In this document: positions 1,228 to 17,679 of the stretch, piece by piece
How the letters are laid out: every line of letters starts with the position of its first letter
How positions within the stretch are numbered: position 1 is the stretch's first letter
Source: a virus
Taxonomy: Duplodnaviria; Heunggongvirae; Uroviricota; Caudoviricetes
IMG/VR virus record: IMGVR_UViG_3300029234_000244
Direction: 5' to 3' (one strand)
DNA: 17,679 nt
The notes under the pieces: generated by a model
Database searches by the model: none
The model's input: the letters and a program-made list of their open reading frames with translations, nothing else
Told to the model about the DNA's origin: nothing
Position numbers and translations under genes: made by a program

Positions 1228-1515
1228 TTACTGTCTCTGGCAATCTTTATCGCGATAACGCCTGAAGTACCCTCTCGCTTCCTCATCCATACCAAGAGCC
1301 GAATGAGTCCGCTTAACTGCCTGTCTTAAATCTCCGAATCTGTCTGTAGTTGCTGGTGGGCGTGCCGCCTTACGGATACATTCAGAGCGTCTGTTTGCTG
1401 CATGTTCACGTTCTTTATCGCCATCTGCCAGCATCATGACTTCTGCCCATCGTGCGGCAGCTCTCCGGTATAGCCCTTTTGACTCCAGCTCTTCAGCTTT
1501 CCTGTCCTTTATCAT
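1228..1515 (-). CDS. PerC-family transcriptional regulator (Pch-like)
   Basis: 95-aa ORF with GAGAGG Shine-Dalgarno before the ATG at 1515. N-terminal AEELESKGLYRRAAARWAEVM resembles the conserved LE.KGLWRRAA.RW motif of PerC/Pch proteins, recalled from memory. Confidence 0.5.
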   Translation of the reverse strand: MIKDRKAEELESKGLYRRAAARWAEVMMLADGDKEREHAANRRSECIRKAARPPATTDRFGDLRQAVKRTHSALGMDEEARGYFRRYRDKDCQRQ

Positions 1516-4242: not shown

Positions 4243-6348
4243 TTATTGAGCTTCCTTTTGCGATGCTTGTGCGACTCTGGTGAGCGATTGTGTGACCGTA
4301 CTGATCGCTCTGTCATATGCTGTGCTACCTTTTGGCGTATTTGCCAGACGTAACAAGGCATTTCGTATAACAGGGCTTTCGTATGCCTTCGCTGCTCCGC
4401 CTACGGCACCAGCAGCAGGAACAACAAACGCAGCCGTTTTTAGCATCCCCGCTAATACTGCTGCGTTTATGATGCCACCACCAACTAACAATCCATAAAG
4501 CTGCTGACCATTTAAGTTTTGAACGTTCGCTTTTGCCGCGTGTCTTGTATCGTTGAGGTATTTAATAACGCCGTCCAGTTCCTTTCCATGTATGCCTTTA
4601 AAGAAAGTTGCTGATTGCTTCCTGTTCCGGTGTAACGCATTAATAAACTTCTCAACACTGATATTTCCAGACGGATCAGTCGCCTTATCTACAGCATTCT
4701 GAACTATGGCTGCTCGTGCGTTTTGCCTACCATTGTCATCCAGAAGCCTGTAAAGCTGAGAACGTTCTGATGGGCTTTGGCTAAAAACAAGTTTTGTTAC
4801 ATCCTCAGGCGTGGCCTTGCCGCTGGCTATTGCCTTTTGAACGCGCGTTCTTCCCATCATGTCATTGAATTTAGACCATGAGCGATCAACCCTTGCCATA
4901 TTAATAGCTTCGTCTGCTCCAAGATTTTTGGCTACGGCTTTTTTCATATCCGCCGTATATGCCTTGTAGATAATATCGCTGGCTTTCTGGAGCGTATCTT
5001 TATCAACAGTGTCAGATGACGCCATAAATCGCTTTCGAAGATCGGTTCTGTTTTCCCTCGCCAGACGCAGGTCATTTGGTCCGCTGGTGATATCGTCTTT
5101 AAATTGCTGCAAGACTTTTACCGCGGCTCTATCCTGAGATTTGCCCGGGCGGCTTAACACGGCAATCTGATTGTCGATAGCTTTTACCGTGTTTGAGAGA
5201 TCGACAGGGGTATCCCCCATAGCGTCAATTATGCGGTTATATCGCTTTCCTGCTGCCTCAATGAATTTTTGTTGCCCTTTAGTCGCAGATTCATAAAGCT
5301 GTTTATCAGAAATGCCACCCAGACCATCGCTAAATGTTCTGACTAAATTTTCTCGTGCTTGTTGTTGATTCAGCCGATTCTTACCGGTTCCAAAAAAAGG
5401 AACTCTTTCGCCTAATGTCTGAGCCTGACTCTGCATAAAGGTTTTATCTTTCAGCATGTCACTGGTCATTAACGGCAGATTTCTTTCCGATGCAAAGTCG
5501 ACAGCAGCCTTTGCTTCAGGCGACATATCACCACGAACAGCCCTCGAAACCGCACTCGCTGTATTTTCCAGCCCCTTACCAATACCACCAATGCCAGCAG
5601 AAATTACCGTTTGTAACGGATCAATATCTTCTCCACCAGCGAGGCTGGTGGCTCCCTGTAGTGCTAAATCTGTAGCTGCTGATTTCCCTATGGCCCCCAG
5701 CACCGTTCCGGCCCTGCCCGCTGGTGTAAACGCCAGCGCATTAGCCAGAAACGATGCCACGTCTTGCGGCGATAAACCCGGCTTGTTCAGAGCATAATCA
5801 CCGGATGGCAGGGAAACGATAGTGTTACCCTTCTCATCCTGCCTTAATTTCGCTCCCATGCTCTGAAGAATCTTTTCCTGAGATGCGTCAGAGCCGAAAA
5901 GTTGAGACCATCGAGCTTTTAGAGCATCCATGCTGAGTGAGGTTAACTCTGGGGCAAGGTCGACATTTTGCAGTCTCTCCATCTCTGGAGTCATTCGGCT
6001 TTCGCCTGTTATAGCATCGCGCATCGCAGCCCCAAGACTGGCTCCCTGTTCTGCTGAACGCTCAAGCCCCTCTCTTTGCTGAGTAGCTAACTTTGCATAC
6101 CCTGACGCAATAGAATTATCAGATGATGTATGTTGAATATTTTGAGTTGCTGATTGGGATCGGTCTATTTCATTCGTTGATGGTAGTGGATAGGCAGCAT
6201 AAAAAGCCTGCTTAGCCTGCTCTACACTTTCTCCGGCTTGCGGGGCAACGACTTCATTGAAGTATTGCTCCTGAGCCTGCGCTTTTTGTTCTGGTGCTAA
6301 CGCCTGATACTGTGGAGAGGCGATAACATCTTTCCATGCTTTAGCCAT
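4243..6348 (-). CDS. Hypothetical 701-aa protein, Ala/Gln/Gly-rich, C-proximal hydrophobic Gly/Ala segment
   Basis: Long ORF with GGGGTGA Shine-Dalgarno; its ATG overlaps the upstream stop (TAATG at 6346-6350). Contains LYGLLVGGGIINAAVLAGMLKTAAFVVPAAGAVGGAA about 60 aa from the C-terminus. I see no Walker A or other catalytic motif. Confidence 0.8.
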   Translation of the reverse strand: MAKAWKDVIASPQYQALAPEQKAQAQEQYFNEVVAPQAGESVEQAKQAFYAAYPLPSTNEIDRSQSATQNIQHTSSDNSIASGYAKLATQQREGLERSAEQGASLGAAMRDAITGESRMTPEMERLQNVDLAPELTSLSMDALKARWSQLFGSDASQEKILQSMGAKLRQDEKGNTIVSLPSGDYALNKPGLSPQDVASFLANALAFTPAGRAGTVLGAIGKSAATDLALQGATSLAGGEDIDPLQTVISAGIGGIGKGLENTASAVSRAVRGDMSPEAKAAVDFASERNLPLMTSDMLKDKTFMQSQAQTLGERVPFFGTGKNRLNQQQARENLVRTFSDGLGGISDKQLYESATKGQQKFIEAAGKRYNRIIDAMGDTPVDLSNTVKAIDNQIAVLSRPGKSQDRAAVKVLQQFKDDITSGPNDLRLARENRTDLRKRFMASSDTVDKDTLQKASDIIYKAYTADMKKAVAKNLGADEAINMARVDRSWSKFNDMMGRTRVQKAIASGKATPEDVTKLVFSQSPSERSQLYRLLDDNGRQNARAAIVQNAVDKATDPSGNISVEKFINALHRNRKQSATFFKGIHGKELDGVIKYLNDTRHAAKANVQNLNGQQLYGLLVGGGIINAAVLAGMLKTAAFVVPAAGAVGGAAKAYESPVIRNALLRLANTPKGSTAYDRAISTVTQSLTRVAQASQKEAQ

Positions 6349-7814
6349 TAATCACCCCATAGTGAAGAAAAGTTACTGCTGGCTGCTGGCTGTGATACCT
6401 GCTCAGATTGCGGCAATGTCTGCGACGAAGAAGAAGTTCCTCTGTCAACTGCTGAAATAACCCGCAAAGCATCATAAGTTCGACCAGAAGCAGCTTTCAG
6501 CGAATTGAACTGGTTTTCCATCTTCCGGCGCTTGGTATCAATGGTTTTTGTGGAGTCGCCAGGCTGAGGGAAATACATTTGATAATATTTTGACATTTCA
6601 GCAGGTGCGATAGCTGCCCCTGTTTCCTGACGGAGTATTGCCATTATTGCGTCATTAGCATTAACAACGTATTGCTGCTCTGCTGGGCTGAGCGTTAAGT
6701 TAGCCAGCGTCCCATTACCCAAAGCATTATTAATGATCGCCACTCGCTGTGGGCTAAGCTGGTCTTTCAGTGTATCTATTGAATCAAGAGCATCCCTAAC
6801 CCTGTATGCAAATCCAGCAGCTTTTTTAGCCCCTTCTGGCGACTTTTCCATGATCTTTTGGGCTGTTGGCAAAGCTATTGGACGAAACCCATCTCCAGAT
6901 ATTGGCTGGTTTAGTTTTCCCTGCTCTTCACTTCCGTCTGTGTAGTATTTTGTGACAGTGCCATCATCGTTTTCTCTAACACTCATTAATTTTTTGGTGT
7001 TTGTATTAATTCCAGCCGCTGCCGCAAATGCCGCCGCCCCCTCTGGATCAGCCTTTAACATTTGCGCGTACTGATTGTAATTCTGCATTGCTGCTGTTGG
7101 TGCATATGCTGACGTTAACGCATTTGCTCGGCTAATATCCTGCCCTCTCGCCTGAAGTGCTTCACCAGCCTGATTGCTGCGGATTGTCTCTGCCAACTTG
7201 CCACGCTCAATATCCCGACTTTCCATTTGATCTTTGATATCGAAATACTTCTCATGACCGAGAGAAAACAGCGCCAGATTACCTGCGAAATGCTGGAAGC
7301 CCTGCGGGTCATTAACCTGCATTTCAGCAATAGTTTCTGGAGGGATACCTAAACGACGCATCTCCTGCTCATTATCCATCATGAACCTGCCAAATGCGCC
7401 CGGACCAAGCGATGAGGCTACCTGTGCTTTGAGCGCCAGATTGCCATAATCATCCCTTTGAGCATCATCGACATAACTCATCCCTTTACGGACTTCCTCA
7501 AACTCTTCTGGGAATGCTGTAATAAGATTACGCATCTGCTCCCTGTCACCGGACGCATAAGCATCTGCATAACCTTTCTGGAATGCCGCTTTACGCTCCT
7601 GCTGTTGCTGCTGCTTATAAATATCAGCAACTCCAGCCAGACCACGAAGACCTGTCAGAGCAACGTTATTTGCACCTGATCGAGCCAGTTCATTGTTTTC
7701 GCGGATCAGACCAAGCGTTGCGTTAATGTCGCTTGCCTTTGGCGCATTCTCATTTTGCGTACCGATGCCAGCAAGAAACCCACCAGAATTAATACCCTGT
7801 TGCCACGTAGCCAT
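6348..7814 (-). CDS. Hypothetical 488-aa protein, Gln/Ala-rich, no recognisable domain
   Basis: Long ORF. I prefer ATG at 7814 (MATWQQGINSGG...), 4 nt after the stop of the 57-aa gene. The ORF track uses a GTG at 7826, which would overlap that gene. Stop overlaps the start of the 701-aa gene. Confidence 0.8.
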   Translation of the reverse strand: MATWQQGINSGGFLAGIGTQNENAPKASDINATLGLIRENNELARSGANNVALTGLRGLAGVADIYKQQQQQERKAAFQKGYADAYASGDREQMRNLITAFPEEFEEVRKGMSYVDDAQRDDYGNLALKAQVASSLGPGAFGRFMMDNEQEMRRLGIPPETIAEMQVNDPQGFQHFAGNLALFSLGHEKYFDIKDQMESRDIERGKLAETIRSNQAGEALQARGQDISRANALTSAYAPTAAMQNYNQYAQMLKADPEGAAAFAAAAGINTNTKKLMSVRENDDGTVTKYYTDGSEEQGKLNQPISGDGFRPIALPTAQKIMEKSPEGAKKAAGFAYRVRDALDSIDTLKDQLSPQRVAIINNALGNGTLANLTLSPAEQQYVVNANDAIMAILRQETGAAIAPAEMSKYYQMYFPQPGDSTKTIDTKRRKMENQFNSLKAASGRTYDALRVISAVDRGTSSSSQTLPQSEQVSQPAASSNFSSLWGD

Positions 7815-7818
7815 TGAT

Positions 7819-7992
7819 TTACCCACGTCCAGTTAAAGTGTAAGCCAGCGCCTTATCCATTAATCCCCGAGCAATTTCGTGGATCGTTGGCGCAACTCCT
7901 ACCTCTGATTTTTTACGCTGCTCCTCCTGAATTTTCTTTATCGCTTCCATTTGCTTCTCACTTATCAATACCGGCTTTACTGAAATAGCCAT
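7819..7992 (-). CDS. Small 57-aa protein, helix-rich, possible DNA-binding (HTH/RHH-like); first gene of the LexA-box operon
   Basis: Translated by hand: MAISVKPVLISEKQMEAIKKIQEEQRKKSEVGVAPTIHEIARGLMDKALAYTLTGRG. Shine-Dalgarno AAGGGGG lies 4 nt before the ATG at 7992. Below the 60-aa cut-off of the ORF track. Confidence 0.55.
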   Translation of the reverse strand: MAISVKPVLISEKQMEAIKKIQEEQRKKSEVGVAPTIHEIARGLMDKALAYTLTGRG

Positions 7993-8440: not shown

Positions 8441-8551
8441 GTTGGTTCAAAATACCGTGTTGTTGGTTCAGTGTTGGTTCAATAAAAAGAATAAAATCCT
8501 TACAAAACAATACTCTTTGCAAATTGAACCAACTGAACCAACTGAACCAAC
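8441..8551. repeat. Iteron cluster 2 (ori-like): 3 GTTGGTTCA at 21/11-bp spacing, AT-rich spacer, then 3 tandem TGAACCAAC
   Basis: GTTGGTTCA at 8441-8449, 8462-8470, 8473-8481. TGAACCAAC at 8525-8533, 8534-8542, 8543-8551. Located 25 bp after the primase stop. Inverted relative to cluster 1. Confidence 0.65.
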
Positions 8552-8576: not shown

Positions 8577-11333
8577 TCATTCTTCAGATGAGTTATAATC
8601 TCCTGGCTGGTAATTGAGTACATAAACGTTTATTTGTCGTCCCTGAATACGTGGTGATTTTCTTTGGTATCCACGACCGCTGTTTGGTGGGGTTAGCATC
8701 CCGGCTTTTTTCAACACTTCAGCAAACTGTTTTGCGTTGAAACCACATGCGATCTCCTTTTCAAATGTGGCCGGGAATGTGTAGAAAATCATTGGGCTTT
8801 CGTCATGTTCTCCACGCTGACGGTATCCGGCTAAATCTTTGATGGGCAAATCTGCCGGGCTGTATGGAAATGGTGCAAAACGGCTAAGCCCATAGGCATT
8901 AAGAAATGCCTCCGTTTGTTCAATAATCTGCTGATGTTCTTTGTTACCTGTGCCGAACTCGCGCAACCATGCGTTATAGCTGTGCTGTATCGCATCACGG
9001 CATGTCTGAGCATCCCAGCCTGTTACAACTTCGCCTAACAGCAATGCTGCCTCCAGAATGGCAAATCGCGCGGCTACACGGTGAACCTGCTCACCATAAT
9101 CGGATGGGATCAGGCTTCTCCATCTGCTTTCGCAATCACGAACAGTTTTAATAGCCTGTTGCTGGTGGTCTGCCAGCCATTTAATCCACTCACGCCCGGC
9201 TGCGCCGTGGTGATGCTGGTAAGCGTCTTTCAGTGCGTCTGCGTGCTGTTTTCCGTTCTGGTAATCGTGAAAGCGTACTGCTTTACTCAACGGAATATTC
9301 AGCAGTCGCACCAGTTGCCCGGCTTTGGTTTTTCGCCCGGAAGTAGCGATAAATGTTTCTAAATCCATTTCTCCGGTGCTGATTGCCACTGTACGCCAGC
9401 GTTTTAGATCCCGGTTTCCACCATCTTTAGCGCCTTGCAGTTTCCCTACACCGTTAAATAACGCATAGGCAGACTGTGAAACGCTGACAGGATCAGCGCC
9501 CTGACCAACTTCATCAAGCGGCATTAATCCGTCATTGTGGGCGGCGGCCTCATTTGCCAGCCCCAGCGCGGTTCCGTACCACGTCAGCCGCAGTAAATCA
9601 GGGTTGCCGTATAAGCTGCTCGCCACGTTTGCCGTGGTGGTCTTACCCGCGCTCGACTGCTCATAGAAATGAATGCCGAACCCGTCAGCGCCCACCAGCC
9701 CAATCAATGGCGCTGCCAGTGCTGCGCCGATCCCGGTCATCATTGAATAGTTACCAAAGGCCAGACGCGCCACGTTATCACGCCAGCTTTTCGCGCTCCC
9801 TGAGACGGTATATCCGGCTGCGGCTGAGCTTCTCCCGCTGAACAGCACAGGATTTTCAGGTGTTCCGATGATTTCCCCATCAGGCATGATGTACGCTCCG
9901 CATTGCCAGCCAGTGGCATGAGCAACACGCCACAATTCACGAGAGCCACTGCGTTGTAGCCAGTCTGCCAGTATTGCTCTGAGGCTGCTTTTGGTCGTGA
10001 CATTTACCCCACCAGCTTTAAGTGTGCGCCATCCTTCACGTTCACCAATATCAGCCAGTGGAATGGCAGCGGTTGTCGGCGTTTCAGAACCAAACGACAG
10101 CCAGCGAAGAATGAGATACTGGTCTTTATCGTCTCTGCCAGTACCGATAACGCTTAACGGAGAACATAACCAGCTTTCGTTATTGATGATTTCTCCACTC
10201 TGGCTGTCAGCTCTCGGAGATACCCAATAAATACCATCCTCGCGGCTTTCTATTCTTGGTTTCAGTGGGTCGGTATCCATAACCTTAAAATCGCTTCCCT
10301 CAATGGTCTGTGGCTCCTGTTTCACGCCATTACCCTGTGGTTGGTACATTGACTTATTGAACGCTTCTGTGGCGCATTTAATGCCGTGTTTTTGGTGGTA
10401 ATCATTCCAGTCTGCTTTGTGATCTGTCGGGGGTAATGCCACCCATCCAGAAACAGATAAAGCTGCTTTTTCTGCTGCTATTCTCCCCGTGTTTTGTCTT
10501 CCTTCGCTGTGGTCGTTATCCGCAGCAATGATGATTTGTGCTGAAGGAAATTTATCCCGCAGTACCTGGGCGACATATAACAGGTTCCCGGCATCAATCG
10601 CCGCCACTGTCAGCGCCTCTGGACGAATTAAATGGGCAGATAATGCCGTTGCCAGCCCTTCTGCGATTAAGATGCTCTGTGTTGTTTCTGGTGCGTTTAT
10701 GGCGTGATATGCCCCTCGCTTTGCTGAACCTGTCAGGAGTCTTTTTTCACCATGTGAGGTAATAGTCTGTGCTGCTGTGACTGCGCCGGATTTATCCACC
10801 AGCGCCAGCAACAGAGATCCATCGGGCAACACGGGGAATGTAAAATCACCTACCCCTTTCGCAACCAGATAATCAGATTTGCCGTTTACAGCCTTTCTGC
10901 GCATGTCATCAAACTGACGGGAAAACGTATCCCGTCTTTGTTGTTCGTCCTTCTCTGCCCTTTTCAGGCGCTCCTGTTCGCGTCGCTGGCGCTCGGTTTC
11001 CAGTTGTTCCCGTTTCTGGCTGGTGGCTTCTGGTGTTTCCGTTGTCCGGTAATCAATACCCAGAACATCAGCGGCAAGAAGCGCCGCCTCTGTTGTGTCG
11101 CAGTTATTTACGCGTTTAATTAAATCCAGCCCATCACCAGCGCCGCACTGATTACAGATGAAGCTACCGCGCCCGTTGTCATCGAACCGGAATCGATCTT
11201 TGCCCCCACATGCAGGGCAGGGAGCATGACGGCGCGGAGAGTCAGGGACATTTATGTTCAGGCAGCCCAGCACATGAGGCCAGTTGTTTTCAGACGCACT
11301 GATAACCTGACGGATAAGATCAATGTTTCGCAT
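8577..11333 (-). CDS. P4 alpha-like primase-helicase (zinc-ribbon + TOPRIM primase, C-terminal P-loop/origin-binding region)
   Basis: 918-aa ORF. N-terminal zinc ribbon CPACGG...FICNQCG. TOPRIM motifs LIAEGLATALS (conserved Glu) and IIIAADNDHSEG (DxD). P-loop-like SSAGKTT. Shine-Dalgarno GGGGG before the ATG at 11333. Confidence 0.9.
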   Translation of the reverse strand: MRNIDLIRQVISASENNWPHVLGCLNINVPDSPRRHAPCPACGGKDRFRFDDNGRGSFICNQCGAGDGLDLIKRVNNCDTTEAALLAADVLGIDYRTTETPEATSQKREQLETERQRREQERLKRAEKDEQQRRDTFSRQFDDMRRKAVNGKSDYLVAKGVGDFTFPVLPDGSLLLALVDKSGAVTAAQTITSHGEKRLLTGSAKRGAYHAINAPETTQSILIAEGLATALSAHLIRPEALTVAAIDAGNLLYVAQVLRDKFPSAQIIIAADNDHSEGRQNTGRIAAEKAALSVSGWVALPPTDHKADWNDYHQKHGIKCATEAFNKSMYQPQGNGVKQEPQTIEGSDFKVMDTDPLKPRIESREDGIYWVSPRADSQSGEIINNESWLCSPLSVIGTGRDDKDQYLILRWLSFGSETPTTAAIPLADIGEREGWRTLKAGGVNVTTKSSLRAILADWLQRSGSRELWRVAHATGWQCGAYIMPDGEIIGTPENPVLFSGRSSAAAGYTVSGSAKSWRDNVARLAFGNYSMMTGIGAALAAPLIGLVGADGFGIHFYEQSSAGKTTTANVASSLYGNPDLLRLTWYGTALGLANEAAAHNDGLMPLDEVGQGADPVSVSQSAYALFNGVGKLQGAKDGGNRDLKRWRTVAISTGEMDLETFIATSGRKTKAGQLVRLLNIPLSKAVRFHDYQNGKQHADALKDAYQHHHGAAGREWIKWLADHQQQAIKTVRDCESRWRSLIPSDYGEQVHRVAARFAILEAALLLGEVVTGWDAQTCRDAIQHSYNAWLREFGTGNKEHQQIIEQTEAFLNAYGLSRFAPFPYSPADLPIKDLAGYRQRGEHDESPMIFYTFPATFEKEIACGFNAKQFAEVLKKAGMLTPPNSGRGYQRKSPRIQGRQINVYVLNYQPGDYNSSEE

Positions 11334-12422: not shown

Positions 12423-12607
12423 TTTTCACCCCCAAGAATTACCAGCTCGGCACGGGCATCGTTAACCAAAGATGAGCACGCTTTAATCGCATCCACGACA
12501 TCAGCAGTTTCTTCAGCCGAAAGACTGACAGCAACCAGGACAGCCGCTGCTTGCTCGATTAATTGAAGTGCGGACGTAAGGCGAGGGGTATTAATTGAGT
12601 TATTCAT
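12419..12607 (-). CDS. Hypothetical 62-aa protein
   Basis: Start chosen at ATG 12607 ([10 protein letters not shown]...) with GGGGG Shine-Dalgarno and ATGAATAA overlap with the upstream stop. The ORF track start at 12664 lacks a Shine-Dalgarno. Confidence 0.5.
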   Translation of the reverse strand: MNNSINTPRLTSALQLIEQAAAVLVAVSLSAEETADVVDAIKACSSLVNDARAELVILGGEK

Positions 12608-12818
12608 TGGTTGCCCCCGTTTTGCATGGCATTTGTCCACCTTCCAGCAGGAAATGAACGTCACGAACGGCGAGATCCAATATCGCGAGTAACGCCTTCA
12701 GTCTTTCGTCTCGTGAGGGAGAGTTGCTCACCAGAATGTCGTTAATCACTTCTGTCAGTGTGATGATCTGGCTTGTGCGTTCGAGGGGATCCATATGCAC
12801 ATCGTAGGTTTTAATCAT
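12600..12818 (-). CDS. Hypothetical 72-aa protein
   Basis: ATG at 12818 ([17 protein letters not shown]...) preceded by GGAGGTG Shine-Dalgarno; overlaps the Icd-like stop (ATGATTAA). Shares its frame with the C-terminus of the 342-codon ORF. Confidence 0.5.
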   Translation of the reverse strand: MIKTYDVHMDPLERTSQIITLTEVINDILVSNSPSRDERLKALLAILDLAVRDVHFLLEGGQMPCKTGATNE

Positions 12819-13628
12819 GTGCCACCTCCATGCGGATACGACCAGCAAAAAAGCAGACGTGATCGCGCACCAGAGAACGGCGAGCATCGCGTTCAGACTC
12901 GGCAGCAATATGATGAATTTTGGCGGTAATTGTCGGGCAATCGCGGCGAACTGCGGCGATAATCCAGATAAATTGAGGTTTTTGGGTAGGGGTAGTAGCC
13001 AGCATGTGGCAGCCTCCTTGATTGATGGTTTATAGCCACCGCCCAAGAGACCAATCTTGCTGGCGGTGGACTGTACGGAGTTGGCCTTACTGGCAATCAA
13101 GGAAACCAGCCTACCCGAAGGTAGCCCCATACAGCCCACCATTGATAAGGTGTGCGTGTGCGCCGATACAAAAAAAGACGCTGGCGCGTCATGTATCGCC
13201 TCGATTGTCAGCGGGAGGCCAATCCCGGCACCCGTTTTATGAGGTGCTTTATAACCATAAACCGTGTTGCCGCATAACGGCAAGCTCTTTTTTATGGACT
13301 CCGAAAACTCAGTATTGGAAGCACCAGATGCACAGTACATCGCGCTCATTTCGTTAACGTCACGCACGTGGACGAATGTTTTTGTGGAGTCACTACACGA
13401 GCGGAAGACATCATCTACGACCAGAAATTTTCTGGCGCAGCCGCTGACCTTCTCAATGCTAATATCATCGCCCGAGATTTCTGGTATGGTTAAGGCATCC
13501 GTTCCGACCACCAGCAAATGATAAACTTTGCTTGCATCTGCTGTATTAATGCCTGACTTTGCCGTCATATTGCTGGATTTTGGCGACATACCTGCCAGTG
13601 AAAATGTCTTCTTCTGGACGGTTAGCAT
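12600..13628 (-). CDS. Hypothetical protein; 342-codon ORF that is probably composite (only the first ~205 codons, about 13012-13628, are well supported)
   Basis: ATG at 13628 has GGAGG Shine-Dalgarno and is coupled to the DUF4222 stop (ATGCTAA). The frame stays open to 12600, but codons about 208-270 run out of frame across the Icd-like gene and translate to low-complexity sequence. Codons 271-342 equal the separately supported 72-aa gene. Confidence 0.4.
12811..13005 (-). CDS. Host cell division inhibitor Icd-like protein (64 aa)
   Basis: ATG at 13005 preceded by a strong Shine-Dalgarno AGGAGG at 7-nt spacing. Protein [21 protein letters not shown]...[16 protein letters not shown] resembles Icd-like proteins of P4-like islands, from memory. 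Confidence 0.5.
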   Translation of the reverse strand: MLATTPTQKPQFIWIIAAVRRDCPTITAKIHHIAAESERDARRSLVRDHVCFFAGRIRMEVAHD

Positions 13629-14642: not shown

Positions 14643-15074
14643 TTAGGCGGCGTTAAACGCGTCCGGGTAGAGTTTCAGAATGTCGGCAATTTCCTGCTGA
14701 GAAAGTCCGTTGTGATCATTTATGTTCGCAAGATGGTTAACATGAGTGATCACTTTCAGAACATCACCACGGCAGGAGAAACGGTAGCGAAGGTGTGTTC
14801 CGATACCATCAGGATTCTTTTCGTCGATACGCTCCAGAGTGATTCCAAGCTGGCGTTCTAACTCTGTTGCATAGTTACGACCAGAAGACAGACGGCAGTA
14901 GCGAAGAATGTCATTTTCTGTCCATCCCTCTATACCAGTACGCAGCATATAGACTCGGGCACGATGCTTTTTCGGTGTGCGCTTTGGTGCTTGAAGGGAT
15001 TTTGTAAGGGGCGTAATATCAGATACGCGAATATCTGAATTAGCCGCCTGTAATGGGCGGTTTTTCTTTTCCAT
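14643..15074 (-). CDS. Hypothetical 143-aa protein
   Basis: ORF with ATGA overlap to the alpA stop (15072-15076); basic N-terminus; no recognisable motif. Confidence 0.65.
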   Translation of the reverse strand: MEKKNRPLQAANSDIRVSDITPLTKSLQAPKRTPKKHRARVYMLRTGIEGWTENDILRYCRLSSGRNYATELERQLGITLERIDEKNPDGIGTHLRYRFSCRGDVLKVITHVNHLANINDHNGLSQQEIADILKLYPDAFNAA

Positions 15075-15292
15075 CAGGCCACCTTCCCGCGGCGTTCTGC
15101 CAGCCAGTTATTAATTTCCACCGCATCAAACGCAGTCACGTTATCTGTTAGCTTCACTGGGCGTGGAAGAGTGCCATTTTTAACCCATCTATCAATAGTA
15201 GGCAGTGAAACACCTAGCAATTCCGGCATGCGAAAGCGACGGATGTATCCAGTTGTTGGGATAGCTGATGATGCTGGCTTGTGTGCTGTCAT
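15074..15292 (-). CDS. alpA: AlpA-family phage transcriptional regulator
   Basis: 72-aa ORF. MPELLGVSLPTIDRWVKNGTLPRPVKL...AFDAVEINNWL fits the AlpA HTH pattern (HTH followed by FP.P.KL and a W-containing tail). First gene of the coupled operon. Confidence 0.8.
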   Translation of the reverse strand: MTAHKPASSAIPTTGYIRRFRMPELLGVSLPTIDRWVKNGTLPRPVKLTDNVTAFDAVEINNWLAERRGKVA

Positions 15293-15357
15293 ATCTCTAG
15301 TAACCTCTCTGATAGCTCATGAAGTTACTTAAAGTTTAGTGGTTGCCCATACAGTAT

Positions 15358-15425
15358 TTCTATTAAGACTAGAATCTATTGAAAGAAATTATAAATCTAT
15401 TGAAAAAATACCGATCCACTGAAAG
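15358..15425. repeat. Phased direct repeats (ATCTATTGAAA-like, 21-bp register) upstream of alpA
   Basis: ttctattaaga (15358-15368), atctattgaaag (15374-15385), atctattgaaaa (15395-15406), tccactgaaag (15415-15425). Confidence 0.45.
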
Positions 15426-15580
15426 ATTGCAAATGCAGGTGGGATAATTATTTTCTTTATTTTCAATTAGTTACCAGTTTAAAAAATCATTGTTTTATCA
15501 AAGAGTTATATCTTTCATCGTCATTCATCATGTTTTTACATTTCTTTTTATCTTTTATTATTCAATTGGTTGAGTCGGTT

Positions 15581-15620
15581 TATAATGGCTCATGATGGCT
15601 TAAAATGGCTAATGATAGCT
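15581..15620. repeat. Four tandem 10-bp repeats (NNNNATGGCT) at helical periodicity
   Basis: tataATGGCT / catgATGGCT / taaaATGGCT / aatgATAGCT, with ATGGCT at 15585, 15595, 15605 and ATAGCT at 15615. Confidence 0.45.
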
Positions 15621-15763
15621 GGCGTATCTTTTAGAGATGGGGTGATTACAGATGAACTAAGCCGAACAGATATAGCAATGGCTAGGCATAGAATTATCTA
15701 TGCTGGTGGAGATGGGTAAACAGGTAATGCCCCGCCATTGCTTTGGAGGGGCGTGAAAAGTGA

Positions 15764-16414
15764 TTAGTCGAGATCGTGGACAGCTAATAAAGCCCGTGAG
15801 ATTTTTTCTAGGAATGTGGCTTTTGCTATTCCTTTATGGGATATCCCTTCATCCTTGATTAAGGTTTCTATGTCACGGTATATAGCTGTGCGATTAGGTT
15901 TCCCATTTTGGATGTAGGAAGATGAGCCTGATTTTTTTATCAGCAGATGTACTATCAACCCCATCATTTTCATTGTCCCGTTTTCCTCATCCTGCTTTCT
16001 ATGCTGCCCACGTCCGCTGCGGTTGGTTTCTTTGATGTAGTTTACTAACTGGAGTCCTCCAAGGTTTCGGGCTTTTTCTTCCCAGCCCTTGGTGCCACGC
16101 AAATCATCAATCGCTTCTGATATTTTCTGAACAATTATTTCTGGTGTATTTGTGTCAATAAATGGGTAAGAAGCTAAGAAAATATCAAGGGCATGGCAAG
16201 GCTCGTCTTTACTAGTTTTTTCACCTCTGTACACCTTGATAGCTCTGGCAAGATGAGTTCTGACAAAATCGACATATTCGAAATTTTCCTCAGGCACATC
16301 GCTAATGCGCATAGATGGGTTTAGGCCAGCCAAGGCCACAGCCATTTCATGAGGGGTAATCGATACAGATGAACAAAGCCGTTCGATTGGCGATTTTCTC
16401 AAGATGTTGTTCAC
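15764..16414 (-). CDS. Hypothetical 216-aa protein, AT-rich, translationally coupled to int
   Basis: GTG start at 16414 overlaps the int stop (GTGA) and follows a strong Shine-Dalgarno CCGGAGG at 5-nt spacing. No recognisable motif. Composition is visibly more AT-rich than the integrase. Confidence 0.65.
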   Translation of the reverse strand: MNNILRKSPIERLCSSVSITPHEMAVALAGLNPSMRISDVPEENFEYVDFVRTHLARAIKVYRGEKTSKDEPCHALDIFLASYPFIDTNTPEIIVQKISEAIDDLRGTKGWEEKARNLGGLQLVNYIKETNRSGRGQHRKQDEENGTMKMMGLIVHLLIKKSGSSSYIQNGKPNRTAIYRDIETLIKDEGISHKGIAKATFLEKISRALLAVHDLD

Positions 16415-17679
16415 ATTTGCCTCCGGGCTTTATCGAATGGCGTTACGTTGTAGTCTTTCCCGCTTTCCAGTGCCACCAGCAGATCAGCCCACAGTGCCAG
16501 TGCTGCTTTACGCTCATCAAAATACTGATGGCGGTTATAAATCCCCTCCACACCCTTAATGCGATGATTGAGGCATCGTTCCGCTACGACAGGATCAACA
16601 CCCAATGCTGCTAAATGAGTACGTGCGGTACGCCGGAAGTCGTGAATCGTGAAATTAGGCACATCCGGCATTTCGGCGCGAACCTTAGCCAGTGCTACGG
16701 GTAAAGTGCTTTCCTGAATATGTGGGATCATTCTGTTTTGCATCTTCCTGGCTGGAAGCACCCATGCGCTATTACATGAAAAGGTGTGTAGCTCTCTCAA
16801 CCATTCAACGGCAGGAGAAGGTAGAGGTATATCAATAGGGTCTCCGTTTTTGCTGCGTTCTTCCGGCAAATGCCATACCGCACCATCTAAATCAAACTCT
16901 TCCCATCGTGCGGCGCATAACTCCATCTTACGAACGCATAGTGCCAGCAATAGCTTAAATGTCAGTTCGTTCTGGCGGCTGAATCCTTTGGCTTTACGCA
17001 TTGCCTGAAAAAATTGGATTAATTCGTCACGGTTCAGCCAGCGATCACGAGATAATTCTTTCCCACCAGCATCTGATACTTCGAAAGCTGAGCAGGGATT
17101 TATCTCCAGAGCGTGGCGTTTTATCCCATAGTCAAAGATACGGCGTGTCCAGCGTAATACATCTGTTGCTATCGTTGGTGCTCCTCGGTCAACGATACCT
17201 TTCAACATGTCGTCAATGTGGCGTGGCTTAACGTCCTCTACCTTCATATGCCCAATGCAGGGGTTAATATCCTTATCAATTCTCCGGCGAAGGATATCGG
17301 GATGTTTCCATCTCGGAAGTATCTGTCGCTCGAAGTATTCGGCGGCCAGATCTGAAACGCGCATGGCGTTTTTCTCAGCCTCCATTTTTGCCAGTGCTTC
17401 AGCTTTTCGTTCCTGTTTCTCTGCTGCTACGTCATAGCCAAGAGCAACTCTGGCTGACAGCTCTTTTGCTGTTTCTCTGGCTTTTGATAGTGACAGTTCG
17501 GAGTAAGAGCCTATAACCATAGCCCGCTGCTTTCCTGCGAGCTTATAGCGGAATCGCCAGAACGGGACTGTGTAGTTTTTGGGGTAGCAAATATAAAGGC
17601 CGTTGCCGTCTGCCTTGCCATCAAATCTGTCTCCCGCCTTTATCCATGCGCGGATCTGCATATCTGTGAGTTTTGGCAT
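16411..17679 (-). CDS. int: Tyrosine-type site-specific integrase, P4-type (DUF4102 N-terminal arm-binding domain + catalytic domain)
   Basis: 422-aa ORF. N-terminal DGNGLYICY...FWRFRYK. Catalytic motifs HDFRRTARTHL and LNHRIKGVEGIYNRHQY (active-site Tyr). Start at the window edge. Confidence 0.95.
   Translation of the reverse strand: MPKLTDMQIRAWIKAGDRFDGKADGNGLYICYPKNYTVPFWRFRYKLAGKQRAMVIGSYSELSLSKARETAKELSARVALGYDVAAEKQERKAEALAKMEAEKNAMRVSDLAAEYFERQILPRWKHPDILRRRIDKDINPCIGHMKVEDVKPRHIDDMLKGIVDRGAPTIATDVLRWTRRIFDYGIKRHALEINPCSAFEVSDAGGKELSRDRWLNRDELIQFFQAMRKAKGFSRQNELTFKLLLALCVRKMELCAARWEEFDLDGAVWHLPEERSKNGDPIDIPLPSPAVEWLRELHTFSCNSAWVLPARKMQNRMIPHIQESTLPVALAKVRAEMPDVPNFTIHDFRRTARTHLAALGVDPVVAERCLNHRIKGVEGIYNRHQYFDERKAALALWADLLVALESGKDYNVTPFDKARRQM

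What the first reader, a model, noticed from the sequence alone, without database searches (positions are those of the whole stretch)
15358..15624. Two phased repeat arrays in the int-alpA intergenic region
One array has ATCTATTGAAA-type copies at about 21-bp register, 70-130 bp upstream of alpA. The other has four 10-bp tandem units ending in ATGGCT, exactly one helical turn apart. Both look like cooperative protein-binding arrays. Candidates are the operator of a master repressor or activator of the alpA-primase operon, or arm-type sites for integrase/excision proteins.
Basis: seen in the sequence. Interest (0 to 1): 0.4.

Follow-up and report, generated by a model that had tools for sequence, protein, structure and literature searches.

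The report
Operator arrays controlling a satellite's alpA
Both repeat arrays are real and belong to the control region of alpA, the master switch gene of a phage-satellite island in E. coli. They always travel with one uncharacterised neighbouring gene, orf216, which is therefore the best candidate for the regulator that reads them.

Summary
Both arrays exist and exceed chance.

**Array A** has four sites, not three, with consensus TTTYAAWRGAW. Start-to-start spacing is 19/21/16 bp. The promoter-proximal site overlaps a weak -35, and a TANNNT -10 (TAAACT, 15333-15338) follows 17-18 bp later.

**Array B** is AGCCAT x3 plus AGCTAT at an exact 10-bp period, about 210 bp further upstream. An IHF-consensus site lies between the two arrays.

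The spacer is not int-alpA. A 216-aa ORF (orf216, 15764-16414), overlapping the int stop codon, lies between them.

**Linkage to orf216:**
- All 17 loci found through an ORF216 relative (26-100% identity) keep array A with the same geometry.
- 8 islands with ~88% identical Int and >77% identical AlpA, but another gene in the slot, lack both arrays.
- Searching by the array pattern alone gave 53 of 53 informative hits with an ORF216-family gene upstream, even where Int is 27% identical and the AlpA-like gene is different.

So these are not integrase arm sites (attP is ~2 kb away), and they are unlikely to be AlpA sites.

**Best reading:** a four-operator promoter array for the cassette's own ORF216, most likely a repressor of P_alpA. 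Array B would be an upstream auxiliary platform. ORF216 has no Pfam, PDB or fold match, and its binding to DNA is inferred, not shown.

The parts
16411..17679 (-). Tyrosine integrase (422 aa), first gene of the int-orf216 pair
   Evidence: Pfam Arm-DNA-bind_3, Phage_int_M and Phage_integrase. Annotated next to yicC in NZ_CP029747.
15764..16414 (-). orf216, an uncharacterised 216-aa all-alpha protein whose start overlaps the int stop by 4 nt. Candidate reader of the arrays.
   Evidence: No Pfam, NCBIfam or PDB sequence match; PHROG 30524, function unknown. Rare family: 34 clusters among 1.84 billion representatives. AF2 pLDDT 90.6 with no fold match. C-terminal half is basic (pI 9.6) and the better conserved part. 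Always found upstream of the arrays.
15686..15755 (-). Structured element just after the orf216 stop: long-range helix 15674-15689/15727-15742 enclosing the hairpin GCATAGA-TAAT-TCTATGC. Possible insulator or terminator of the int-orf216 transcript.
   Evidence: Inverted repeat I3. RNA fold -28.4 kcal/mol, z -2.9. Analogous hairpins follow the stop codon in L006, L009 and L017 (read from the sequences). There is no U-tract, so terminator function is inferred only.
15641..15658 (-). Decayed GTTCAY-type 10-bp repeat (AGTTCATCTG TAATCACC). It is intact as 3-6 copies in relatives.
   Evidence: L006 AGTTCACCCA x3.7, L021 GTTCAC x3, L149 and L169 TGTTCATC x6.
15585..15620 (-). Array B: AGCTAT, AGCCAT, AGCCAT, AGCCAT read on the alpA strand, at an exact 10-bp period (one helical turn)
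   Evidence: Phased RGNCRT arrays of >=3 copies occur only in orf216-alpA spacers among the loci held at that point. The same kind of array with a drifting unit is present in relatives.
15496..15508 (+). IHF-consensus site TATCAAAGAGTTA between arrays B and A
   Evidence: Exact match to WATCAANNNNTTR. 8 exact matches in 10 homologous spacers against 0.59 expected, 0 of 200 shuffles. Similar position (-200 to -225 from the ATG) in L009 and L021 (exact) and L006 (one mismatch).
15413..15425 (-). Array A site 1 (CTTTCAGTGGATC), centre about -93 from the inferred start
   Evidence: PWM score 13.2. Aligned column block S1 in 10 loci.
15394..15406 (-). Array A site 2 (TTTTCAATAGATT), centre about -74
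   Evidence: PWM score 17.5; block S2. 19 bp from site 1 in 27 of 30 distinct arrays.
15373..15385 (-). Array A site 3 (CTTTCAATAGATT), centre about -53. The best conserved site (RGAWTC).
   Evidence: PWM score 18.1; block S3.
15357..15369 (-). Array A site 4 (GTCTTAATAGAAA), centre about -37. Its 3' half, TAGAAA (15357-15362), is the only -35-like hexamer.
   Evidence: PWM score 11.9; block S4. 16 bp from site 3 in all loci found through proteins.
15333..15338 (-). Inferred -10 hexamer TAAACT of P_alpA. Inferred transcription start near 15326.
   Evidence: A TANNNT hexamer lies 17-18 bp after site 4 in 29 of 30 distinct arrays, although the hexamer sequence itself varies (TAAACT, TAGAAT, TACACT, TAATCT, TAGTAT...). 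Not mapped experimentally. Too weak for the consensus scan.
15299..15329 (-). alpA leader hairpin that pairs the Shine-Dalgarno sequence GAGAGG (15304-15309)
   Evidence: RNA fold -12.5 kcal/mol, z -2.6. Stems differ but still pair in 10 alleles; the loop AGCTATCA is conserved.
15074..15292 (-). alpA (72 aa), the regulated gene and first gene of the alpA-orf143-antA-(isrK/C4)-primase operon
   Evidence: Pfam Phage_AlpA (above threshold) and HTH_17 (24.6 bits, below its cut-off of 27). AlpA is the master activator of Gram-negative PICIs (PMC6092414, PMC11773190).

Best explanation
**What the region is.** The 471-bp spacer between orf216 and alpA is the control region of alpA. alpA is the master activator gene of a P4-like / Gram-negative PICI satellite integrated beside yicC.

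**Array A.** It is a four-operator array. Each site is a ~12-bp imperfect palindrome (TCTWT-N2-AWAGA; consensus TTTYAAWRGAW). The spacing is fixed at 19/21/16 bp, which puts the sites roughly on one face of the helix. The promoter-proximal site overlaps the weak -35 of P_alpA, and a TANNNT -10 follows 17-18 bp later.

**Who reads it.** I propose that the sites are read by the cassette's own product, ORF216, which is co-transcribed and translationally coupled with integrase. Occupancy of site 4 would most likely occlude the -35. That would keep alpA, and with it excision and replication, silent in the integrated state until a helper-phage signal relieves it.

**Array B.** Together with the other 10-bp tandem units seen in relatives, it is an upstream auxiliary platform of the same cassette, with one binding unit per helical turn. 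The IHF site between the arrays could bend array B toward the promoter.

**Shown:** the arrays, their conserved geometry, the promoter-like anatomy, and the exclusive linkage to orf216.

**Inferred:** that ORF216 binds DNA, which array it reads, the sign of regulation, the transcription start, and looping.

**How the confidence breaks down.** The single figure of 0.45 is for the whole statement. That array A is a functional protein-binding array on the alpA promoter I put at about 0.85. That ORF216 is its reader, about 0.5. That it represses, about 0.3 overall.
For: **Real and non-random**

**Conserved geometry**
- Spacing is 19/21/16 in loci found independently through proteins: L006, L009, L013, L014, L017, L019, L022, L023, L146 and L147 and L148 at 26% ORF216 identity.
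- L021 differs by 1 bp.
- A TANNNT lies 17-18 bp after site 4 in 29 of 30 distinct arrays.
- There is no good -35 other than the site-4 half-site.

**Linkage, protein-first**
- 17 of 17 loci with an ORF216 relative have array A.
- 8 of 8 loci with an alpA relative (7 of them with int also in range: six ~88% and one 62% identical) but a different gene in the slot have neither array.

**Linkage, array-first**
- Metagenome scan: 28 of 28 real arrays with enough upstream sequence have an ORF216-family gene immediately upstream.
- IMG/VR scan: 24 have it within 900 bp and 1 has it 1.75 kb upstream.

**Independence from Int and AlpA**
- The cassette is kept where Int is 27% identical and the downstream gene is a BLAST-unrelated AlpA-like protein.

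**The slot behaves as a regulator-plus-operator unit**
- Every alternative gene in the slot comes with its own different repeats or palindrome in front of alpA.

**ORF216 itself**
- Its C-terminal half is basic (pI 9.6) and the better conserved part, with an SGRGxHRKxDE loop. This fits a conserved DNA motif.
- Its start overlaps the int stop codon.

**Literature**
- P_alpA of Gram-negative PICIs is silent without a helper phage and is the decision point. Its repressor and inducer are unknown (PMC6092414; PMC11773190).
Against: - orf216 and the arrays are physically adjacent, so some of the linkage could be hitch-hiking within one recombination block.
- The array A motif barely changes while ORF216 diverges to 26% identity. 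A conserved host or helper factor would explain that equally well.
- P_alpA looks intrinsically weak (8 of 12 matches to consensus). Together with published helper-dependent activation, this fits an activator as well as a repressor.
- The transcription start and the promoter are inferred. A second, upstream promoter-like site exists on the alpA strand (TTTACC-16-GATAAT, 15720-15693).
- The unit sequence and copy number of array B drift, even between close relatives. Its reader is unknown.
Confidence: 0.45

Rival explanations
1. Array A is the landing site of a helper-phage-encoded activator, the still unidentified inducer of Gram-negative PICI alpA promoters. It would act as a class II / -35-replacing activator. 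ORF216 would be a passenger, or would act at another step.
For: P_alpA reporters of EcCICFT073 and EcCIMP1 are switched on by helper induction, not by SOS, and still respond without AlpA (PMC6092414; PMC11773190). The promoter here has a weak -10 and no independent -35. Site centres near -37, -53, -74 and -93 resemble activator arrays. The motif stays constant while ORF216 diverges.
Against: This does not explain why 53 of 53 arrays keep an ORF216-family gene upstream across different Int and AlpA contexts. No array of this pattern was found in phage-sized contigs: IMG/VR hits are 6-24 kb apart from two of 39.5 and 46 kb, and nearly all carry int and orf216. There was no blastn match in 50,697 phage records. 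A factor encoded by one helper type should have targets in the helper genome.
Confidence: 0.22
2. The arrays are AlpA's own autoregulatory sites. Array B in particular would be a one-protomer-per-turn array of the Xis/Cox/Vis type.
For: AlpA activates its own promoter in EcCICFT073 and probably in EcCIMP1 (PMC6092414; PMC11773190). Winged-helix excisionase-family proteins bind phased direct repeats, and P2 Cox binds at least 6 cox-boxes upstream of P4 PLL, the promoter of the alpA homologue vis (PMC3936717).
Against: Islands with 77-93% identical AlpA (an identical recognition-helix region in L002, the one I compared) but another cassette lack both arrays anywhere in 10 kb. Array A also precedes a BLAST-unrelated AlpA-like gene. 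What is common to the window-type alpA alleles (14 of the 16 aligned) is the leader hairpin and its loop, not the arrays.
Confidence: 0.1
3. Array B (and the GTTCAY arrays of relatives) are replication iterons, a crr-like second site for the primase-helicase, as in P4.
For: They are 10-bp tandem units next to a ~170-bp AT-rich stretch. L021 carries TGTTCACC, from memory the P4 type I iteron, and in L149 and L169 the spacer units TGTTCATC resemble the primase-adjacent TGTTCACC. Copy number changes as in iterons. The island can exist as a circle.
Against: The window's primase-adjacent iterons are TGAACCAAC (8525-8551, 8461-8481, 1552-1578), unrelated to AGCCAT. The identical spacer is found with a different primase C-terminal module in NZ_CP029747. 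L030 and L149 share spacer arrays but have different primase-side iterons (TTATCCCG against TGTTCACC). Islands with other cassettes replicate without such arrays.
Confidence: 0.08
4. The arrays are arm-type sites for integrase or excision proteins.
For: The integrase has an arm-binding domain. Phased direct repeats are typical of arm sites.
Against: In the circular form attP lies between the PerC gene and int, about 2 kb from the arrays. No similar motif cluster lies near the island ends. The arrays are absent with ~88% identical Int and present with 27% identical Int.
Confidence: 0.02
5. Array A is read by a conserved host protein. Array B is slippage-prone, curved AT-rich DNA with no specific reader.
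For: The motif is constant across Enterobacterales hosts. Array A sites resemble the IHF core (TTTCAAnnnnTTY). Array B units and copy number drift.
Against: The most informative positions of array A (invariant G, RGA) fall in IHF's unspecified NNNN, and sites 16-21 bp apart cannot all hold IHF (established knowledge of IHF footprints). I could not match the motif to any E. coli regulator I know, though that is recall, not a database test. Phased arrays of this kind occur in every cassette and nowhere else in the loci held at the time of that scan, which argues for selection.
Confidence: 0.1

Closest known systems
P4 late-left promoter PLL with P2 Cox boxes and Vis (satellite P4)
   Same: The position in the element is the same: a regulated promoter directly upstream of the alpA homologue (vis), heading an operon that runs through a C4/CI-type immunity RNA to the primase. 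Upstream phased direct repeats are bound one protomer per helical turn, and this is where helper information enters (PMC3936717; Rfam C4 and isrK in the window).
   Different: No match to the cox-box consensus TTAAAG/CNCA. I saw no TGT-N12-ACA Ogr/Delta site, but that is from reading the sequence, not a formal scan. There is no sid/delta/psu operon and no divergent late promoter. The arrays here are tied to an island gene (orf216) that P4 does not have.
SaPI Stl / Gram-positive PICI master repressor with its operators
   Same: An int-proximal island gene whose product would sit on multiple sites at the promoter of the island's activation and excision genes, holding the satellite silent until a helper phage arrives. 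The regulator slot is allelically diverse.
   Different: stl is divergently transcribed; orf216 is co-directional and coupled to int. There is no sequence or fold similarity (Foldseek hits to Stl have E 2.9-5.3, not significant). Repression is not shown here. Published Gram-negative PICIs are described as activator-driven, with no known repressor (PMC6092414).
Lambdoid operator arrays (OR1-3 / OL1-3) and OmpR/PhoB-type -35-replacing arrays
   Same: Three or four similar sites at roughly two-turn spacing. The proximal one overlaps the -35 of a weak promoter. Pseudo-palindromic sites suggest a dimeric reader with cooperative occupancy.
   Different: The spacing pattern 19/21/16 and the motif are unlike any of these. 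There is no divergent promoter. The candidate reader has no recognisable HTH family.
EcCICFT073 / EcCIMP1 alpA promoters (Gram-negative PICIs)
   Same: The same element class and gene order (int, alpA, Bro/Ant zone with immunity RNAs, primase, PerC). alpA is the master switch and is induced by the helper phage (PMC6092414, PMC11773190, PMC10111431).
   Different: Those papers define no cis sites in P_alpA and no int-proximal regulator. EcCIMP1 has a small unrelated ORF in the slot and a different integration site (tRNA-Thr rather than yicC).

Membership tests
Gram-negative PICI / P4-like satellite (the island as a whole) | Unidirectional int, alpA and primase, with a Bro/Ant zone carrying C4/isrK immunity RNAs, and no structural or lysis genes | tested here: met
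   Pfam on the ORFs; Rfam C4 79 bits and isrK 65 bits; RefSeq annotation. The organisation matches PMC10111431.
Gram-negative PICI / P4-like satellite (the island as a whole) | Excises as a circle; mobilised by a helper phage | tested here: inconclusive
   A 12,152-bp circular record and a 19-kb separate record exist. Helper dependence cannot be tested here.
Operator array of an element-encoded regulator at a master-switch promoter | Several similar sites, conserved in sequence and spacing, overlapping the core promoter | tested here: met
   Four sites at 19/21/16; site 4 over the -35; TANNNT 17-18 bp downstream in 29 of 30 arrays. The promoter itself is inferred.
Operator array of an element-encoded regulator at a master-switch promoter | The cognate regulator gene is linked and co-inherited | tested here: met
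   17 of 17 protein-first, 53 of 53 array-first, 0 of 8 with other cassettes.
Operator array of an element-encoded regulator at a master-switch promoter | The regulator binds the sites and changes transcription | not testable with these tools
   ORF216 has no known DNA-binding domain. This needs EMSA or footprinting and reporter assays.
Integrase arm-type sites | Lie within the att arms, close to the core | tested here: not met
   attP lies between the PerC gene and int in the circular form, about 2 kb away.
Integrase arm-type sites | Co-vary with the integrase | tested here: not met
   Absent with ~88% identical Int; present with 27% identical Int.
Cox-box / Xis-type filament sites | At least 4-6 direct repeats, one per helical turn, upstream of the satellite's vis/alpA promoter | tested here: met
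   Array B has 4 units at exactly 10 bp, about 250-290 bp upstream of the inferred start.
Cox-box / Xis-type filament sites | Consensus TTAAAG/CNCA; bound by a winged-helix directionality factor | tested here: not met
   The unit is AGCCATNNNN, with no match to the consensus in PMC3936717. The binder cannot be tested.
P4-type ori/crr iterons | The same iteron as at the primase-proximal origin, co-varying with the primase | tested here: not met
   Primase-side iterons are TGAACCAAC. An identical spacer occurs with a different primase module. L030 against L149.
IHF site (the element between the arrays) | Match to WATCAANNNNTTR, enriched and similarly positioned | tested here: met
   8 exact matches in 10 spacers against 0.59 expected. 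Binding is not tested.

The most novel reading that the evidence does not exclude
ORF216 founds a new family of DNA-binding proteins with a previously unseen fold. It would be the missing master repressor, a functional analogue of SaPI Stl, for a lineage of Gram-negative PICI / P4-like satellites. It would read a fixed four-operator array on P_alpA plus an upstream one-per-turn array through an IHF-bent loop. The int-alpA slot would be a swappable regulator-plus-operator cassette that decides which helper phage can wake the satellite.
Probability: 0.3. Interest if true: 0.75.

Novelty: new variant of a known kind. Interest (0 to 1): 0.55.

Why it matters
In Gram-negative PICIs, alpA transcription is the decision point for excision, replication and transfer. 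The papers I read define neither the cis sites of its promoter nor any island-encoded repressor, and the helper-encoded inducer was still unidentified in the 2018 paper (PMC6092414).

This window gives a precise, conserved promoter anatomy and a single candidate protein. That makes the question testable with a few EMSA and reporter experiments.

It also shows that the slot between int and alpA is a hot-swapped regulatory cassette. Such a cassette could explain helper specificity and matter for engineering PICI-based delivery vehicles.

If ORF216 does not bind DNA, the arrays still mark where the helper or host signal must act.

Tried and rejected
**Homology between ORF216 and the alternative slot proteins**
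- By eye their N- and C-termini looked alike. hhalign gave probabilities below 1%, so I dropped this.

**Structure-based function for ORF216**
- The first AF2 run was poor (pLDDT 64). A deeper alignment gave pLDDT 90.6.

**Sequence annotation of ORF216**
- Pfam, NCBIfam, PHROGs and PDB sequence searches gave no function.

**Known RNA in the spacer**
- The only Rfam hit is a sub-threshold CRISPR-DR match. No ORF of 50 aa or more lies within the spacer.

**Divergent copies by DNA similarity**
- E. coli genomes hold only copies that are >=90% identical, and >=99% in 110 of 113 records. Phage records hold nothing. Relatives had to be found through proteins and patterns.

**Pattern searches**
- A loose two-site pattern in IMG/VR was swamped by chance hits. 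My first three-site pattern had the wrong gap and matched nothing. The corrected pattern was validated on known loci.

**Other readings of the arrays**
- Integrase arm sites and primase iterons: rejected on co-variation (see the membership tests).

**Consensus promoter scan**
- It does not report P_alpA, which is too weak. It lists an alternative promoter-like site at 15720-15693 that I could not evaluate.

Full report
**Setting.** All genes in this part of the window are on the minus strand. In order they are:
- int, 16411-17679
- an unannotated 216-aa ORF, orf216, 15764-16414, whose start overlaps the int stop by 4 nt
- a 471-bp spacer, 15293-15763
- alpA, 15074-15292
- orf143, and then an AntA-family gene
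- an 'ash' ORF that contains Rfam isrK (13171-13247) and C4 (13059-13146)
- a Toprim/DUF927 primase, 8577-11333

The spacer is >=99% identical in 110 of the 113 matching E. coli records, which come from 111 of 5,426 complete genomes. In NZ_CP029747 the island lies between yicC and dinD. It also occurs as a 12,152-bp circular 'plasmid' and as a separate 19-kb record, in which attP lies between the PerC gene and int. By gene order this is a Gram-negative PICI / P4-like satellite as described in PMC10111431. In such elements alpA is the master activator, and its promoter is switched on by the helper phage (PMC6092414; PMC11773190).

- Spacing is 19, 21 and 16 bp.
- Array B is ATGGCT at 15585, 15595 and 15605, plus ATAGCT at 15615, exactly 10 bp apart.
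- Both exceed chance. A 12-nt exact repeat at short range was reached in 3 of 2000 dinucleotide shuffles of the spacer. Three phased 6-mers were reached in 1 of 2000. The phased ATGGCT pattern matches 3 times against 0.15 expected in the window.
- The label 'int-alpA intergenic region' is wrong, because orf216 lies in between.

**Anatomy on the alpA strand**.
- A structured element follows the orf216 stop (z -2.9).
- Next come a decayed GTTCAY repeat, then array B (AGCTAT/AGCCAT x3).
- A ~170-bp AT-rich stretch follows, with an exact IHF-consensus site (TATCAAAGAGTTA, 15496-15508). That consensus occurs 8 times in 10 homologous spacers against 0.59 expected.
- Then come the four sites of array A, and 17-18 bp later TAAACT (15338-15333).
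- A leader hairpin (15329-15299) pairs the Shine-Dalgarno sequence.
- Each array A site is an imperfect palindrome (TCTWT-N2-AWAGA). The 3' half of site 4 (TAGAAA) is the only -35-like hexamer, so the proximal site sits on the -35 of a weak promoter.
- The start near 15326 is inferred, not mapped.

**Conservation through AlpA relatives.** A scan of one genome per species with AlpA returned 13 good loci.
- Five of them have array A in front of alpA: L006, L009, L013, L014 and the window's own island (L001, fetched).
- Eight do not, although AlpA is 77-93% identical and Int, where it is within the locus, is ~88% identical in six and 62% in one.
- The difference is the gene between int and alpA. 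The array-bearing loci have an orf216 homologue. The others have unrelated 250-340-aa genes, each with its own repeats or palindrome before alpA.

**Conservation through ORF216 relatives.**
- Loci fetched through ORF216 relatives at 68-79% identity (L017, L019, L021, L022, L023) all carry four sites with the same spacing and a TANNNT at the same distance.
- So do loci at 26-36% identity (L146, L147, L148).
- In L148 the motif has drifted to TGGAATTCCA, yet the spacing is still 19/21/16.
- A further clade (28% identical to the window's ORF216: L030, L047, L084, L085) keeps the array although Int is only 27% identical and the downstream gene is a different AlpA-like protein.

**The reverse test.** I searched collections with the array pattern alone, after validating it on known loci.
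- Metagenomes gave 31 hits. One was a chance hit and 2 were at contig edges. The other 28 of 28 have an ORF216-family gene immediately upstream.
- IMG/VR gave 28 hits, mostly on contigs of 14-20 kb. Three were at edges, 24 have the gene within 900 bp, and 1 has it 1.75 kb upstream.
- Among 30 distinct arrays, the site 1-2 spacing (not constrained by the pattern) is 19 bp in 27. A TANNNT lies 17-18 bp after site 4 in 29, while the hexamer sequence itself varies.
- That is the signature of a promoter with a fixed protein scaffold.

**Array B across relatives.**
- Every ORF216-linked spacer has one or more short tandem arrays of 10-bp period (11 bp in L013) in its upstream half. L022 was scored by eye only.
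- The unit drifts: AGCCAT here, AAGYCGT, GTCATTA, AGCACCTAAC, GAGCCACCTGG, GGTATTGGCC.
- Copy number changes between close relatives: CCGTGCCAGT occurs twice in L009 and four times in L106.
- Phased RGNCRT runs of three or more were found only in these spacers among all loci held when the scan was run.
- The units do not match the primase-side iterons (TGAACCAAC here) and do not follow the primase allele. So a replication role is unlikely.

**Who reads the arrays.**
- Integrase and AlpA are disfavoured by the co-occurrence pattern above, and by distance from attP.
- ORF216 is the only gene that always accompanies the arrays.
- It belongs to a rare family: 34 clusters at 50% identity among 1.84 billion representatives.
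- The C-terminal half is basic (pI 9.6) and the better conserved part, with a near-invariant SGRGxHRKxDE loop. This fits a protein that reads a conserved motif, but it is weak evidence.
- My impression that the alternative slot proteins share domains with ORF216 was not borne out.

**Mechanism I commit to.** Array A is the operator array of P_alpA and is read by ORF216.
- orf216 is coupled to int and is presumably expressed in the integrated state.
- Unrestrained AlpA is harmful to the cell (PMC6092414).
- Site 4 covers the -35.
- For these reasons I favour repression, relieved by a helper signal, over activation, but only slightly.
- Array B would be an auxiliary upstream platform, brought to the promoter by an IHF bend.
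- My confidence that array A is a functional protein-binding array on the alpA promoter is about 0.85. That ORF216 is its reader, about 0.5. That it represses, about 0.3 overall.

**Rivals.** The main rival is a helper-encoded activator that lands on array A. It fits the published helper-dependent activation and the weak promoter. It does not explain the exclusive linkage to orf216, or the absence of the array pattern from phage records and from contigs without int and orf216. A conserved host factor cannot be excluded.

**Comparison with known systems.** The closest functional precedent is P4 PLL. That promoter lies in front of the alpA homologue vis and is controlled through phased cox-boxes bound one protomer per turn by P2 Cox (PMC3936717). 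The position and the logic are the same, but the motif, the proteins and the linked gene differ. SaPI Stl is the closest analogue for an int-proximal master repressor, though there is no homology and the gene orientation differs. The cis elements are therefore of a known kind. The fixed four-site geometry, the cassette organisation and the orphan protein family are new.

**Verdict.** It pins down the control region of a satellite's master switch, and it nominates one uncharacterised protein as its regulator. The arm-site reading is rejected.

Noticed in passing
window 13059-13247 (-), inside ORF 12600-13628: Rfam isrK (65 bits) and C4 antisense RNA (79 bits) lie inside the 342-aa 'ash family' ORF. 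The Pfam Phage_ASH match (aa 124-218) overlaps the C4 gene. This suggests P4/P1-type RNA immunity, and that part of the annotated Ash ORF may really be an RNA gene.
   Followed up: partly
window 8525-8551, 8461-8481, 1552-1578: There are perfect 9-bp iterons, TGAACCAAC x3, directly after the primase stop, and TGTTGGTTCAG x2 nearby. An inverted set, GTTGGTTCA x3, lies about 7 kb away near the PerC end. The layout resembles the ori/crr pair of P4. A relative (L167) has 4 copies instead of 3.
   Followed up: partly
window 15299-15329 (-): The alpA leader folds into a hairpin that buries the Shine-Dalgarno sequence. Across 16 alpA alleles the stem sequence changes but still pairs (for example CCCCATAAC/GTTATGGGG and TTCCCGTAAC/GTTACGGGAA). 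The loop AGCTATCA stays constant, and the hairpin begins at the inferred transcription start. It may be a translational control element or a protein or AlpA site common to the window-type alpA alleles (14 of the 16 aligned).
   Followed up: partly
L024 (NZ_CP148430.1, whole record) and L025 (NZ_LT599831.1): The island is assembled as a 12,152-bp circular 'plasmid' in a strain that also has a chromosomal copy, and as a separate 19-kb record in another strain. This suggests that it excises and persists as an episome.
   Followed up: partly
L002-L005, L007, L008, L011, L012, between int and alpA: The slot between int and alpA holds at least five unrelated 250-340-aa genes with no Pfam match. Each is followed by its own repeats or palindrome just before alpA, for example GTGAGATTTTCAAA/TTTGAAACTCACAC in L008 and AGGTACAGTAA/TTACTGTGCCT in L003. 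This looks like a swappable regulator-plus-operator cassette.
   Followed up: partly
L009 4601-4620 versus L106 and L163: The 10-bp unit CCGTGCCAGT is present twice in one Klebsiella island and four times in close relatives. The GTTCATC and ACGTGTCAT arrays also vary in copy number between near-identical islands.
   Followed up: partly
window 15693-15720 (-): A promoter-like site on the alpA strand, TTTACC-16-GATAAT, lies just after the orf216 stop and upstream of array B. If active, the arrays would lie in a long leader.
   Followed up: no
NZ_CM129041.1 (hits H30 and H70): One E. coli genome matches only positions 1-344 of the spacer query, in two places. This may be an insertion or rearrangement next to array A.
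   Followed up: no
L183 (IMGVR_UViG_2875658422_000001): This is the only array whose ORF216-family gene is 1.75 kb upstream rather than about 0.5 kb, which suggests an insertion within the spacer.
   Followed up: no
window 4243-7826 (-) and 1228-1515 (-): The late end of the island encodes a 492-aa 'phage DNA ejection protein', a 701-aa hypothetical protein and a PerC-family regulator. This resembles EcCIMP1, whose helper is the P22-like phage Kapi1, and hints at a P22-like helper here too.
   Followed up: no
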